Translations under genes and position numbers: made by a program
Source: an uncultured Methanosarcinales archaeon
GTDB taxonomy: Archaea > Halobacteriota > Methanosarcinia > Methanotrichales > Methanotrichaceae
DNA: 64,000 bases
Assembly (NCBI GenBank): GCA_963798205.1
Contig: CAWCSK010000003.1
Coordinates: forward strand, 10,360-74,359
Direction: 5' to 3'
Notes under the pieces: model-generated
Database searches by the model: none
What the model was told of the DNA's origin: nothing
What the model saw: the letters and a program-made list of their open reading frames with translations, nothing else
Part shown: positions 2,976-53,956 of the stretch, piece after piece
Layout: every line of letters starts with the position of its first letter
How positions within the stretch are numbered: position 1 is the first letter of the stretch

Positions 2976-3901
2976 CTAAAAGACGAACCCGGTCTCGGAA
3001 CTGGGTAATATCCTTACCAGTATATAGTCTTTCATTCGCGACGGCCTGATGGTAGCAATCTCGCCGAGCTTCACTCCTTCGTCGAAGGTTACTGCCGCCA
3101 CCTTATCCTTGTAGCCTTCGTAGGGAAGCTTCACCCGGCATCCGGTGAGATTCAGGGCAATTGGCAGCGGCGAATAAGAGAACTCCACCTCCGGCACCTG
3201 CTCACGCACGGCATCCATGACTCGTGGCGGAGAGGTCGTGAGCGGGATCCTTAGCTATTGCGGTCCTGGTCTTATCAAGAGCCCTGCCGACAACCTCGAC
3301 GATCTTGTCCAGGGTTCCGATCTCCGTGGCCTTACGGGCTCTGTGAGCAACGCGGCCAATGGACGGAACATACTCGAAGGCATAGGGAAGGTCGCCCGCC
3401 ATGCATTTGCGGCCCGCCTGTGACGACGACAGGCACGCTGATGTTCCTGTAGAGGCACTCTTTCTTCTTAATGCACTCCTGGAAGTTGCCGAAGATGAAC
3501 ACGGCTGCATCATGTTCGTTTATTAATGCCGTCTCGTATTCATTTATCTGGGCGATCTCCCGGCCCACTCCTCTGGCCAGACCGAGCATGTTCGTCTTGG
3601 AGCCATGCCGGCGCAGGTATTCGGCAATATCGCAGGCTGTGTGAGGCAGATGGTGGATGGCCAGCGTCGGCGTCACAACCGCTACCTCTGTTCCTGCTAG
3701 AGGCGCTCTCACCAGCTCTCCTCTCAGCTCACGGCTCAGGGCTTCCAGCGCCGCCATGTCTTCCGAAGGAATCAAGATTAGCAGGATGATCTCGGTCTGT
3801 GTCACATTCTTCTGCAGTACATAGCCGCCCAGGTCCTCCACCAGCTCTACAACCAGGTCGTGCTTGTACAATCCTCCGGTGAACATCACAGGCTCAAGCA
3901 T
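2976..3901 (-). CDS. Methanogenesis marker protein 7 (frameshifted)
   Basis: TGGLYKHDLVVELVEDLGGY, HHLPHTACDIAEYLRR, GLARGVG; split over three frames; position in the marker operon. Confidence 0.9.
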
Positions 3902-51800: not shown

Positions 51801-52781
51801 TCACGCCAGCAACAGCTTCATCCCCAAACCCGTATCTAGAGCTTTTTTATAAACGGCATTTCCCGCTGCCACATCCTGGATGCCGAGGCCCGTGGAGTCG
51901 AAGATTGTGATCTCTTCGTCACTGATGCGTCCCGGTTTTTTGCCGGTCAGGATTTCGCCTATCTGGGCGTAGATATCCTGGGGCGCCAGCAGTCCCTCTG
52001 AAATGGGAACATTCACTTCGCCGGAATGTACTGCCTGGGTCAAATCGTCTACAACAACTTTGGCCCTCTTTGTCAAAGACGACTCCAGCTCTTGCTTACC
52101 TCTGGCATCCGCACCAATGGCATTGATATGAGTCCCAGCCCTGATCCATTTATCCTGGACCACGGGACGGCGCGAGGGGGTGGTAGTAACCAGAATATCG
52201 CACTGGCAGGCATCCTCTGGACTGGAGGTGGTCAGACAGTCGCAATTAAGGTATGGTCTGACATCGTCTCTAAAGGATTGCGCTCTTTCCAGGGAGCTGT
52301 CGGAAACGATCACCTGCTCAATCCGGAAGTGTCTGGACAGGCCCAAAAGCTGTGTTCGCGCTTGCACTCCTGCCCCAATAATACCCACCACATGAGAATT
52401 TTGACGGGCGAGAGTTCTGGCGGCCACAGCGCCTGCAGCTCCCGTGCGCATGCTGGTGAGATAGGTCGCGCCCATGATGGCAAGAGGTGCGCCTGTCCTG
52501 GAAGAGTTCAACACCAGAAGGGCCATAACTGTAGGAAGCCCTATTTCCTGATTCCTGGTATGAACATTGACGATCTTCACCCCAGCCAGGTCTTGCCCCT
52601 CCAGATAGGCGGGCATGGTTCTCAGGTCTCCGTCATATCTGGAGAAGTAAAGATAGGACTTGGGCGGCATCTGGGTTTGGCCCATTCCGTGATCATAGAA
52701 GGCCTTCTCTACGGCAATAATTGTATCATCCATGGTCAAAAGCGACCTTACTTCCTCCTCCGTGAGCCAGAGTACTTCCAT
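51801..52781 (-). CDS. ala: Archaeal alanine dehydrogenase (ornithine cyclodeaminase/mu-crystallin family)
   Basis: MPPKSYL, GDLRTMPAY, KIVNVH, RTGAAG, GAGVQA, HINAIGAD, FDSTGLGIQD. Confidence 0.9.
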   Translation of the reverse strand: MEVLWLTEEEVRSLLTMDDTIIAVEKAFYDHGMGQTQMPPKSYLYFSRYDGDLRTMPAYLEGQDLAGVKIVNVHTRNQEIGLPTVMALLVLNSSRTGAPLAIMGATYLTSMRTGAAGAVAARTLARQNSHVVGIIGAGVQARTQLLGLSRHFRIEQVIVSDSSLERAQSFRDDVRPYLNCDCLTTSSPEDACQCDILVTTTPSRRPVVQDKWIRAGTHINAIGADARGKQELESSLTKRAKVVVDDLTQAVHSGEVNVPISEGLLAPQDIYAQIGEILTGKKPGRISDEEITIFDSTGLGIQDVAAGNAVYKKALDTGLGMKLLLA

Positions 52782-52867
52782 TAAAACACCCGGGTTTCAT
52801 GGAGGCAGTGGAGGAGAAATAAGCTTTGGCTGCCAAAGAGGAAATTTGTTGAGACGATTTGTGGACG

Positions 52868-52940
52868 AAAAGAAGATTCGAAGAAGTAATGGGGGCTTGA
52901 GCCTTCGAGATGTAAGGGATAGCAACTCATCGGAGGCTCC
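52868..52940 (-). ncRNA. Candidate sRNA or 5' leader, copy 1
   Basis: TTAAATAG box at 52970-52963 places +1 at the G of GGAGCCTCC; hairpin, then a pyrimidine-rich tail. Confidence 0.45.
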
Positions 52941-52962
52941 AATAGATTACTAGTATTTTTAA

Positions 52963-52998
52963 CTATTTAAGTTTAATTAAATGTGCGGCGGGCACATT
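52963..52998 (-). promoter_or_regulatory. TATA box plus AATGTGC-N5-GCACATT palindrome, copy 1
   Basis: Read directly from the sequence. Confidence 0.55.
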
Positions 52999-53243
52999 CT
53001 TCCTCCGGAATAGTCGTCATAGTAATATCGGTATTATCGATATTGTTGATAGTAATCAATCTTAATCATGGGGCCTGTAGAATAGGACTGAAACTCCCAT
53101 GAGCCTCCGAGGGACTCATACGCGGCAATAAAAATCGAAATGTTTTGACAACCATGAAATTCGATTTTACCTGGGAAACACTCTGGATTCATAGATTCAG
53201 TTGAGGCGAAATCGGCTGTGGCTGCCAAGAGGAAATTTGTTGA

Positions 53244-53312
53244 GAAGATTAGAAGAAGTAATGGGGGCGTGAGCCTTCGAGATGTAAGGGATGGCAACTC
53301 ATCGGAGGCTCC
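53244..53312 (-). ncRNA. Candidate sRNA, copy 2
   Basis: TTAAATAG at 53342-53335; +1 at 53312; same hairpin. Confidence 0.45.
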
Positions 53313-53334
53313 AATAGATTACTAGTATTTTTAA

Positions 53335-53370
53335 CTATTTAAGTTTAATTAAATGTGCAGCGGGCACATT
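53335..53370 (-). promoter_or_regulatory. TATA box plus AATGTGC-N5-GCACATT palindrome, copy 2
   Basis: Read directly; the difference from copy 1 lies in the N5 spacer. Confidence 0.55.
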
Positions 53371-53683
53371 CTTCCTCCGGAATAGTCGTCGTAGTAATAT
53401 CGGTATTATCGATATTGTTGATAGTAATCATTCTTAATCATGAGGGCTGGAAAATACGATTGACGAGCGAGATTTGCAGTGCAGAGAGATCCTCTGTCCA
53501 GTACTTTGCTCAAGTGGCCAGGGGTTATGAACCAGAAGGCATGGCTTCCCGTGGCTCCCGGAGAGTTGAGAGAATAAGTTATTTTACAAATCCAACCGCG
53601 AAAAGAGAAGTGACAAGGAAATTTATCTCGAAAGGCTCACGCCTTGCGAGTCCTCGCCACTCTTTAAGAAAAAAAGATAGGCT

Positions 53684-53956
53684 CTAAAGCTCTTCCAGCT
53701 TCTCAACACCGGTTTTTTTCACTCTCGGCTTCCAGATCTCATCCGGCATCCAGGCTGGCGCCCCTTTGGGCTTCTTTACCTGAACTCTCTCGCCTACGAA
53801 TATGTGCACCTTCTTTGTGCCGCGCTCTCTAAGCCGTATGTCTGTGTGACCTCTATTGGCTGCCTTCAATGCTGCCTGTCTCGGCTGCTTTCCCGTAAAG
53901 ACACCAATCTCATTGCCCTTTTTGTCTCTAAGTGCGAAATTCCTTGTCTCAGCCAT
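53684..53956 (-). CDS. Non-histone chromosomal protein MC1
   Basis: RNFALRD..GNEIGVFTGKQPRQAALKAANRG, IRLRERGTKKVH, PAWMP..IWKP. Confidence 0.95.
   Translation of the reverse strand: MAETRNFALRDKKGNEIGVFTGKQPRQAALKAANRGHTDIRLRERGTKKVHIFVGERVQVKKPKGAPAWMPDEIWKPRVKKTGVEKLEEL

What the first reader, a model, noticed from the sequence alone, without database searches (positions are those of the whole stretch)
52827..53442. Duplicated non-coding cassette resembling twin sRNA genes with their own promoter and operators
Seen in sequence: two ~225-245-bp near-identical copies, ~150 bp apart, between ala and MC1. Read on the minus strand, each has an AATATCG-N7-CGATATT palindrome, then an AATGTGC-N5-GCACATT palindrome, an A-rich BRE-like stretch and TTAAATAG. 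Exactly 30 nt after the first T of that box begins GGAGCCTCCGATGAGTTGC(T/C)ATCCCTTACATCTCGAAGGCTC, a stem-loop followed by a pyrimidine-rich tail. Most differences between copies fall in the loop, the N5 spacer or the tail, and the stem and palindrome arms are unchanged. Inference: a regulated, duplicated ~70-nt sRNA whose exposed AUCCCUUAC loop could pair with purine-rich RBS regions. Copy 1 could instead be the ala 5' leader. Caveats: the stem pairs slightly better on the plus strand (G-U instead of C-A), and a short uORF (MSC(Y/H)PLHLEGS...) overlaps the hairpin.
Basis: partly seen in the sequence, partly recalled or inferred. Interest (0 to 1): 0.75.

Follow-up and report, generated by a model that had tools for sequence, protein, structure and literature searches.

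The report
Methanothrix multicopy small RNA, twin copies
This is a real tandem duplicate of a short promoter-plus-hairpin cassette that recurs in several copies per genome in Methanothrix and sister genera, and it likely makes a small RNA of about 60 bases that is predicted to block ribosome-binding sites, possibly including that of a putative cell-division gene.

Summary
Observation confirmed and extended. The twin copies are real: another species has the same pair 372 bp apart. The cassette belongs to a family with no Rfam match: 100 units in 52 genomes, up to 8 per genome, some in 178-181 bp arrays, not found outside the family except one chance-level hit. Conserved parts are an archaeal BRE/TATA at a fixed distance from a G start, a near-invariant GAGCCU/AGGCUC stem, and CCCU motifs in a variable loop and 3' tail. 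It is not an ala leader: 46 of 92 downstream genes are convergent, and ala has its own promoter-like motif. A dispersed 97-bp repeat, related to IS1634 ends, separates the copies. Best model: sibling trans-acting sRNAs, like Listeria LhrC, that mask G-rich ribosome-binding sites. The top predicted target is the cdc48-linked PRC-barrel (CdpB-like) gene, ranked 1 of 2335. It stays in the top 0.7% in 5 of 5 relatives, against 0 of 23 control windows in the top 1%. Expression is not shown, the stem has no covariation, and sRNA and target do not co-vary.

The parts
52878..52940 (-). Predicted small RNA, copy 1. Start G at 52940; stem arms 52939-52934 and 52904-52899; loop seed 52925-52912; CCC tail 52896-52889. 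The 3' end near 52878 is inferred.
   Evidence: (model E 2.4e-13). End inferred from the fall of conservation and 178-181 bp array spacing in relatives.
53250..53312 (-). Predicted small RNA, copy 2. Start G at 53312; stem arms 53311-53306 and 53276-53271; loop seed 53297-53284; CCC tail 53268-53261.
   Evidence: (model E 2.5e-14).
52941..52982 (-). Core promoter of copy 1: BRE-like ATTTAATTAAA (52982-52972), TATA CTTAAATA (52971-52964), A-rich stretch, pyrimidine-G start.
   Evidence: Positions 85-100% conserved over 98 units; TATA core also at the same distance in 14 of 19 hits found by the RNA-only model.
53313..53354 (-). Core promoter of copy 2, identical to copy 1.
52983..53060 (-). Upstream conserved array of copy 1 (ATTACTA repeats, TATT, AAT at about 14-bp steps); likely a regulator-binding region.
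   Evidence: YTATT-N9-11-AAT-N12-13-AWTTAA in 135 of 181; no similar site elsewhere in the 63%-complete own genome.
53355..53432 (-). Upstream conserved array of copy 2.
52816..52830 (-). Separate promoter-like motif of ala (GCCAAAG then CTTATTTC), about 40 nt before the ATG; promoter role inferred.
   Evidence: Present before ala in 11 of 11 loci read.
53176..53228 (-). Decayed duplicate of the ala upstream region carried with copy 2.
   Evidence: 11 differences in 53 nt versus 7 in 202 for the cassette, Fisher p 1.2e-4.
53083..53179 (+). Dispersed two-hairpin repeat at the duplication junction; related to the inverted ends of an IS1634 element elsewhere in the genome.
   Evidence: 18 profile hits at E<0.05 in the own genome, 9 at E<1e-10; flanked transposase is NF033559; also at the junction in G097.
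51801..52781 (-). Alanine dehydrogenase gene (neighbour, not part of the RNA).
   Evidence: TIGR02371 458 bits, above cut-off.
53684..53956 (-). MC1 chromatin protein gene (neighbour; weak candidate target).
   Evidence: PF05854 E 4e-39.

Best explanation
The region holds two tandem copies of a conserved promoter-plus-hairpin cassette that likely makes a standalone small RNA of about 55-70 bases, which is predicted to repress translation by pairing its C-rich loop and tail with G-rich ribosome-binding regions of other mRNAs. Shown: the duplication, the multicopy family, the fixed TATA-to-G geometry, the near-invariant stem, the two CCCU motifs and the independence from neighbouring genes. Inferred: transcription from 52940 and 53312 under a dedicated regulator binding the upstream array; a 6-9 bp closing stem that displays an unpaired 16-45 nt loop; pairing with targets. 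Best single target (about 0.3): the cdc48-linked PRC-barrel (CdpB-like) gene at G000:C21:32909-33163, where the loop would pair 14 bp over -8 to +7, covering the Shine-Dalgarno region and AUG. The tandem pair arose by duplication of cassette plus ala upstream region, with a mobile repeat at the junction, and has been kept in two species, likely for dosage.
For: Family: 56 of 105 family genomes hit; 100 units in 52 genomes, 1-7 anchored per genome; RNA model hits 24 of 30 genus and 33 of 65 family genomes. Geometry: TATA core 28-30 nt before the stem G in 97 of 98 units; 14 of 19 units found without the promoter in the query also have it. Standalone: downstream gene convergent in 46 of 92 units, neighbours unrelated. 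Structure: stem pairs 1-6 Watson-Crick in 91-96 of 98 units; CCCU in 75 of 98 loops and 67 of 98 tails; seed and tail predicted unpaired. Selection: cassette 7/202 versus remnant 11/53 differences. Target: PRC-barrel gene rank 1 of 2335 with the 14-nt seed and rank 1 after opening costs; orthologue with own-genome loops in the top 1% in 7 of 13 and top 10% in 12 of 13 other genus genomes; 5 of 5 within 0.7% versus 0 of 23 control-gene windows within 1%; an extra AAGGGA upstream of the SD in several orthologues. Precedent: LhrC UCCC motifs (PMC4132741, passages); anti-RBS action of M. mazei sRNA154 and sRNA41 (PMC5867862, passages).
Against: No expression evidence: the runs found were contigs only, with flat depth. 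No covariation in the stem (1 cell with a two-sided change; covariation score below all 500 shuffles; 0 of 9 pairs). Stem position 7 is C.A in 45 of 98 units, which would be a G-U pair on the other strand, and mean folding energy is lower on the other strand. Cognate sRNA-target pairs are no better than permuted ones (PRC p 0.50; MC1 p 0.10 and 0.90). With 24 diverse family loops the PRC gene ranks 11 in the own genome, not 1. PRC support weakens outside the genus (3.7-19th percentile) and in G023 (22nd). Percentiles take the best of up to 5 loops per genome, use the own genome as background, rest on my simple gene caller, and come from related genomes. Part of the site is the coding start. 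Canonical anti-SD CCUCC is in only 7 of 98 loops. One subfamily lacks CCCU in its loop.
Confidence: 0.55

Rival explanations
1. The cassette makes the same small RNA, but it works as a protein-binding decoy or scaffold: the sequence-invariant stem and C-rich strands are recognised by an RNA-binding protein rather than by mRNAs.
For: The stem is conserved in sequence, not just pairing, while loop length ranges 16-45 nt. No sRNA-target co-variation. Multicopy decoy RNAs exist (CsrB siblings, PMC6262261, abstract start only).
Against: No partner identified. Ro/TROVE absent in 5 of 5 genomes. The conserved single-stranded motif is the complement of G-rich RBS variants and picks a target whose site persists in relatives.
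Confidence: 0.2
2. The hairpin is a cis-acting 5' leader or attenuator of the downstream gene (here ala).
For: One subfamily sits 121-158 nt before ala on the same strand in several genomes; there is no strong terminator hairpin after the stem.
Against: 46 of 92 units face a convergent gene; same-strand neighbours are unrelated; tandem arrays of bare units exist; ala has its own conserved promoter-like motif in 11 of 11 loci; copy 2 was preserved while its ala-side remnant decayed.
Confidence: 0.07
3. The functional RNA is the plus strand (G-rich loop and GGA/AGGGA motifs), and the AT-rich block is its terminator.
For: Plus strand folds better; position 7 is G-U on that strand in 45 of 98 units.
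Against: No conservation beyond about 12 nt on the side where its promoter would lie; the AT-rich block has BRE/TATA form at a fixed distance; G-U wobbles valid only on the minus strand occur at four other pairs (14 cells) and at pair 11-35 (4 of 16).
Confidence: 0.07
4. It is a DNA element (protein-binding site or small mobile repeat) with no RNA function.
For: Variable copy number and position; the promoter block is better conserved than the loop; a mobile repeat lies at the junction.
Against: No terminal repeats or shared transposase neighbours; none in viral contigs; orthologous positions persist across species; conservation is patterned as promoter, stem and CCCU motifs.
Confidence: 0.06
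5. The unit encodes a small peptide (MSC(Y/H)PLHLEGS...).
For: An ATG lies in the hairpin of both window copies.
Against: ATG within the first 45 nt in only 51 of 184 units; loop lengths vary by non-multiples of three.
Confidence: 0.03
6. The twin arrangement is an assembly artefact.
For: The assembly looks indel-prone (the ACDS operon is broken into pieces).
Against: Another species (G097) has both copies 372 bp apart with the same junction repeat and the same decayed remnant; the copies differ at 7 sites.
Confidence: 0.01

Closest known systems
Listeria monocytogenes LhrC1-5 (multicopy UCCC-motif sRNAs)
   Same: Several near-identical copies per genome, each with its own promoter; UCCC-type motifs in a hairpin loop and a single-stranded stretch that pair with a G-rich SD region (PMC4132741, passages read).
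   Different: No sequence match (no Rfam hit); archaeal BRE/TATA promoter; one hairpin and two motifs instead of two hairpins and three; about 60 nt; regulator and inducing signal unknown.
Methanosarcina mazei sRNA154, sRNA41, sRNA162
   Same: Methanogen intergenic sRNAs; sRNA154 loop 2 masks an RBS and sRNA41 represses ACDS translation (review PMC5867862, passages).
   Different: The model of this family finds 1 chance-level hit in 76 genomes of the neighbouring family f3; no Rfam match; this family is multicopy with tandem arrays. The primary papers were not read (PMC5785227 not held).
Archaeal box C/D and H/ACA guide RNAs
   Same: Size, terminal stem; weak SNORD60 hits at E 1.2-3.9.
   Different: Boxes not conserved: box C-like in 19, box D in 8, ACA after the stem in 1 of 184 units.
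Y RNA / Ro60 system
   Same: Paired 5' and 3' ends, pyrimidine-rich loop (resemblance recalled, no call).
   Different: No TROVE protein in 5 of 5 genomes searched, while controls ring.

Membership tests
Any Rfam 15 family | Score above the family's gathering threshold | tested here: not met
   6 hits, E 1.2-6.1, 14-21 bits versus thresholds 36-75; 0 hits at E<=1 in 10 loci (7 family units, 3 junction-repeat loci).
Trans-acting anti-RBS sRNA (functional class) | Own promoter, independent of neighbouring genes | tested here: met
   Sequence evidence only.
Trans-acting anti-RBS sRNA (functional class) | Expressed as a discrete short RNA | tested here: inconclusive
   only contigs, one 4-10 kb contig per run with flat depth; tested on a relative's locus (L005), not the window.
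Trans-acting anti-RBS sRNA (functional class) | Accessible seed with conserved complementarity to a target RBS | tested here: inconclusive
   PRC-barrel site conserved within the genus but no cognate co-variation.
Trans-acting anti-RBS sRNA (functional class) | Changes translation or stability of the target | not testable with these tools
   Needs reporter or in vitro translation assays.
LhrC family | Multicopy with UCCC motifs in loop and single strand | tested here: met
   UCCC in 73 of 98 loops and 63 of 98 tails; arrays.
LhrC family | Sequence and structure homology (two hairpins, three motifs) | tested here: not met
   No Rfam match; one hairpin.
Box C/D guide RNA | Conserved boxes C (RUGAUGA) and D (CUGA) | tested here: not met
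   19 and 8 of 184.
H/ACA guide RNA | ACA triplet after the hairpin | tested here: not met
   1 of 184.
Y RNA | Ro60/TROVE partner in the genome | tested here: not met
   0 of 5 genomes.
M. mazei sRNA154/sRNA41/sRNA162 | Homologue present in the neighbouring methanogen family | tested here: not met
   1 of 76 at E 0.04, lacking the promoter at the family distance; 0 of 150 in the phylum draw. The sequences of those sRNAs were not compared directly.

The most novel reading that the evidence does not exclude
An archaeal family of sibling small RNAs, confined to one clade of filament-forming acetoclastic methanogens, that shuts down translation of a CdpB-like division protein (and perhaps the clade's extra MC1 chromatin proteins), giving RNA-level control of cell division in archaea.
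Probability: 0.2. Interest if true: 0.85.

Novelty: new variant of a known kind. Interest (0 to 1): 0.6.

Why it matters
Few methanogen sRNAs have known targets, and those come from Methanosarcina mazei (review PMC5867862). My searches found no described sRNA for Methanothrix and no multicopy C-rich sibling family in archaea; subscription journals and supplements were not covered. Methanothrix are acetate-using methane producers of digesters and wetlands (own knowledge). A compact family with a fixed promoter, a defined seed and a ranked target gives a direct handle on their regulation. It would also show that the bacterial design of sibling sRNAs with C-rich seeds arose in archaea.

Tried and rejected
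Rfam: no match. RNA runs for a relative's locus: 24 runs, all contigs; 4 laid, uninformative. First two collection scans used too short a gap and found nothing; corrected. First pair count used a mis-set structure string; redone. Regulon search with the upstream motif: nothing beyond the two copies in the own genome (score 70 versus next 18) or clearly in relatives. MC1 as target: MC1 is expanded (2-9 matches) in the sRNA-bearing genera and mostly single in those without; GAGGGA precedes 37 of 70 paralogue-type and 0 of 38 ancestral-type starts (at least one row misclassed). But own-genome ranks are only 241-404 of 2335 for the loops, cognate pairing is not significant, and this is one clade; kept as a weak lead. 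Acetate permease satP: GGAGGGA also in 3 of 3 readable sRNA-less genomes, so not specific. SepF, FtsY (4 of 12 in the top 1%, site overlaps the upstream gene) and ACDS epsilon (1 of 8 other genomes in the top 1%; the best-scoring window is in an sRNA-less genome): not specific. Control genes PGM and C43:54129 probably had internal ATGs called as starts and one thymidylate synthase window was off, which weakens the control. TIGR01765 was a wrongly recalled accession; IS1634 was then shown. The sigma-70 scan is not applicable to archaea; its one terminator-like hit at 52838-52824 overlaps the ala promoter-like motif, and its stem is not kept in relatives. Earlier scan findings: none.

Full report
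Observation. The two copies, their palindromes, the TATA-like box and the 30-nt distance to GGAGCC are as described. The copies differ at 7 of 202 positions, none in the stem. The duplicated unit is longer than reported, 52784-53091 versus 53176-53463. It carries a second copy of the ala upstream region that has decayed (11 of 53 differences; Fisher p 1.2e-4 against the cassette). The gap holds a 97-bp repeat with 18 profile hits in the own genome; two weak hits flank an IS1634 transposase in inverted orientation. Another species, G097, has the same twin arrangement, junction repeat and remnant. So the duplication is real and older than the split of the two species, and the cassette has been kept by selection or gene conversion.

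Family. The unit hit 56 of 105 family genomes (42 of 58 in the genus, 0 of 16 and 0 of 7 in two other genera). I fetched 60 regions around further hits and anchored 100 units in 52 genomes. A pattern scan added 87 distinct units (only part of the capped metagenome list was shown, all stored loci were read). Of 73 genome-collection hits, 71 are labelled Methanothrix, Methanosaeta, Methanotrichaceae or Methanosarcinales, one uncultured archaeon, and one a 2.5-kb contig in a bacterial bin, probably misbinned. Viral contigs gave none. A covariance model hit 33 of 65 family genomes and 1 of 85 other genomes of the class at E 0.04, and 0 of 150 in a phylum-wide draw. Copy number reaches 7-8; some genomes have arrays with starts 178-181 bp apart. 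Rfam has no match.

Anatomy. The best-conserved block is ATTTAATTAAA(C/T)TTAAATAGTT(A/T)AAAAT. The TATA core lies 28-30 nt before the stem's first G in 97 of 98 units, and the start context is T-(T)-G; this fits archaeal promoter geometry (own knowledge). That set was found with promoter-containing queries, so I checked 19 hits found only by the RNA model: 14 have the TATA core at the same distance, one has a variant, one has lost it by deletion, and the three weakest hits (E 0.015-0.04) lack it. It was not found before any other gene in the own genome, which is 63% complete. The RNA has a stem whose first six pairs are Watson-Crick in 91-96 of 98 units, a 16-45 nt loop with CCCU in 75, and a tail with CCCU in 67. 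Conservation fades about 12 nt after the stem. The stem barely varies, so there is no covariation support. Position 7 is C.A in 45 of 98 and the opposite strand folds better on average, which is the main argument for the other strand. Against that, 14 wobble cells at four other pairs work only on the promoter-facing strand, and the other side has no conserved promoter.

Not a leader, guide or peptide. Of 92 units with a called downstream gene, 46 face a convergent gene, and the 76 neighbour proteins scanned are unrelated to each other. A promoter-like motif precedes ala in 11 of 11 loci. Boxes C, D, ACA and a start codon are not conserved. No Ro protein was found in 5 genomes.

Expression. I searched runs with a relative's locus (L005). 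All 24 were contigs; four laid gave single 4-10 kb contigs with flat depth. This says nothing for or against a short RNA.

Targets. I called 2335 genes with a simple hexamer model and scored loop pairing at their starts. The top hit is a PRC-barrel gene (PF05239) downstream of a Cdc48-like gene (identified by eye from its translation): 14 bp over -8 to +7, rank 1 with the seed and after opening costs. Orthologues were found in 25 of 28 genomes. With each genome's own loops (best of up to 5) against a 900-window sample of the own genome, they rank in the top 1% in 7 of 13 other genus genomes, top 10% in 12 of 13, and 22nd percentile in G023. Five other genera gave 3.7-19%. Six sRNA-less orthologues had medians of 12-44% (best-of versus median is not symmetric). 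Five other genes that ranked high in the own genome gave 0 of 23 windows in the top 1% in the same five relatives where the PRC gene was within 0.7% in 5 of 5 (two controls had doubtful starts). Against this: no cognate advantage over permuted pairs (p 0.50), rank 11 with diverse family loops, and all strong cases share one genus. PRC-barrel proteins act in FtsZ-based division in haloarchaea, many lie next to cdc48, and not all are division proteins (bioRxiv 10.1101/2023.03.28.534520, passages), so the division link is inferred. MC1, satP, SepF, FtsY and ACDS epsilon were tested and are weak or non-specific.

Comparison. It works most like LhrC, a multicopy sRNA whose UCCC motifs in loop and single strand bind a G-rich SD (PMC4132741, passages), and like the anti-RBS action of M. 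mazei sRNA154 and sRNA41 (PMC5867862, passages). It is a member of neither. Paper searches (listings only) found nothing on a Methanothrix sRNA; no supplements were read, and transcriptome supplements could list it.

Verdict. A real, apparently undescribed multicopy small-RNA gene family of one Methanotrichaceae clade, here as a retained tandem pair. My estimates: about 0.85 that it is a transcribed standalone RNA, 0.55 that it acts by masking ribosome-binding sites, 0.3 that the PRC-barrel mRNA is a target. Interest 0.6.

Noticed in passing
window 53083-53179; G000:C24:1719-1769 and 3486-3558; other hits: A dispersed two-hairpin repeat of about 97 bp, 18 profile hits in the own genome, often at gene 3' ends, with no Rfam match; related sequence forms the inverted ends around an IS1634 transposase. 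Possibly a non-autonomous element derived from IS1634.
   Followed up: partly
window 53684-53956; MC1 is present in 2-9 matches per genome in the sRNA-bearing genera but mostly single in the others. The extra paralogues have different promoters and often a GGAGGGA SD, while the ancestral copy has GAGGUAUAAAA.
   Followed up: partly
window 53627-53645: The region after MC1 is complementary to the 3' arm of copy 2 (12 nt exact, about 18 with one bulge). It is part of a local hairpin, present in G097 but not in G017 or G014, so probably chance.
   Followed up: partly
L022:1562, L076:1565, L090:1529, L092:1560 and similar: A subfamily with the same promoter and stem has a longer loop without CCCU and a CCCAUACAUUC tail, suggesting a different target set.
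   Followed up: no
L593 (G011:C171:722-809): A copy that has lost the TATA block by deletion but keeps the hairpin; possibly a silent copy.
   Followed up: no
L610 (G148:C7:89097-89169): The only hit outside the family (E 0.04) has both stem arms and AUCCCU but no TATA at the family distance; chance or a distant relative.
   Followed up: partly
G000:C17:120095-127553: The ACDS operon is split into many short frames, suggesting indel errors in this assembly; single-base indels in the window should be treated with caution.
   Followed up: no
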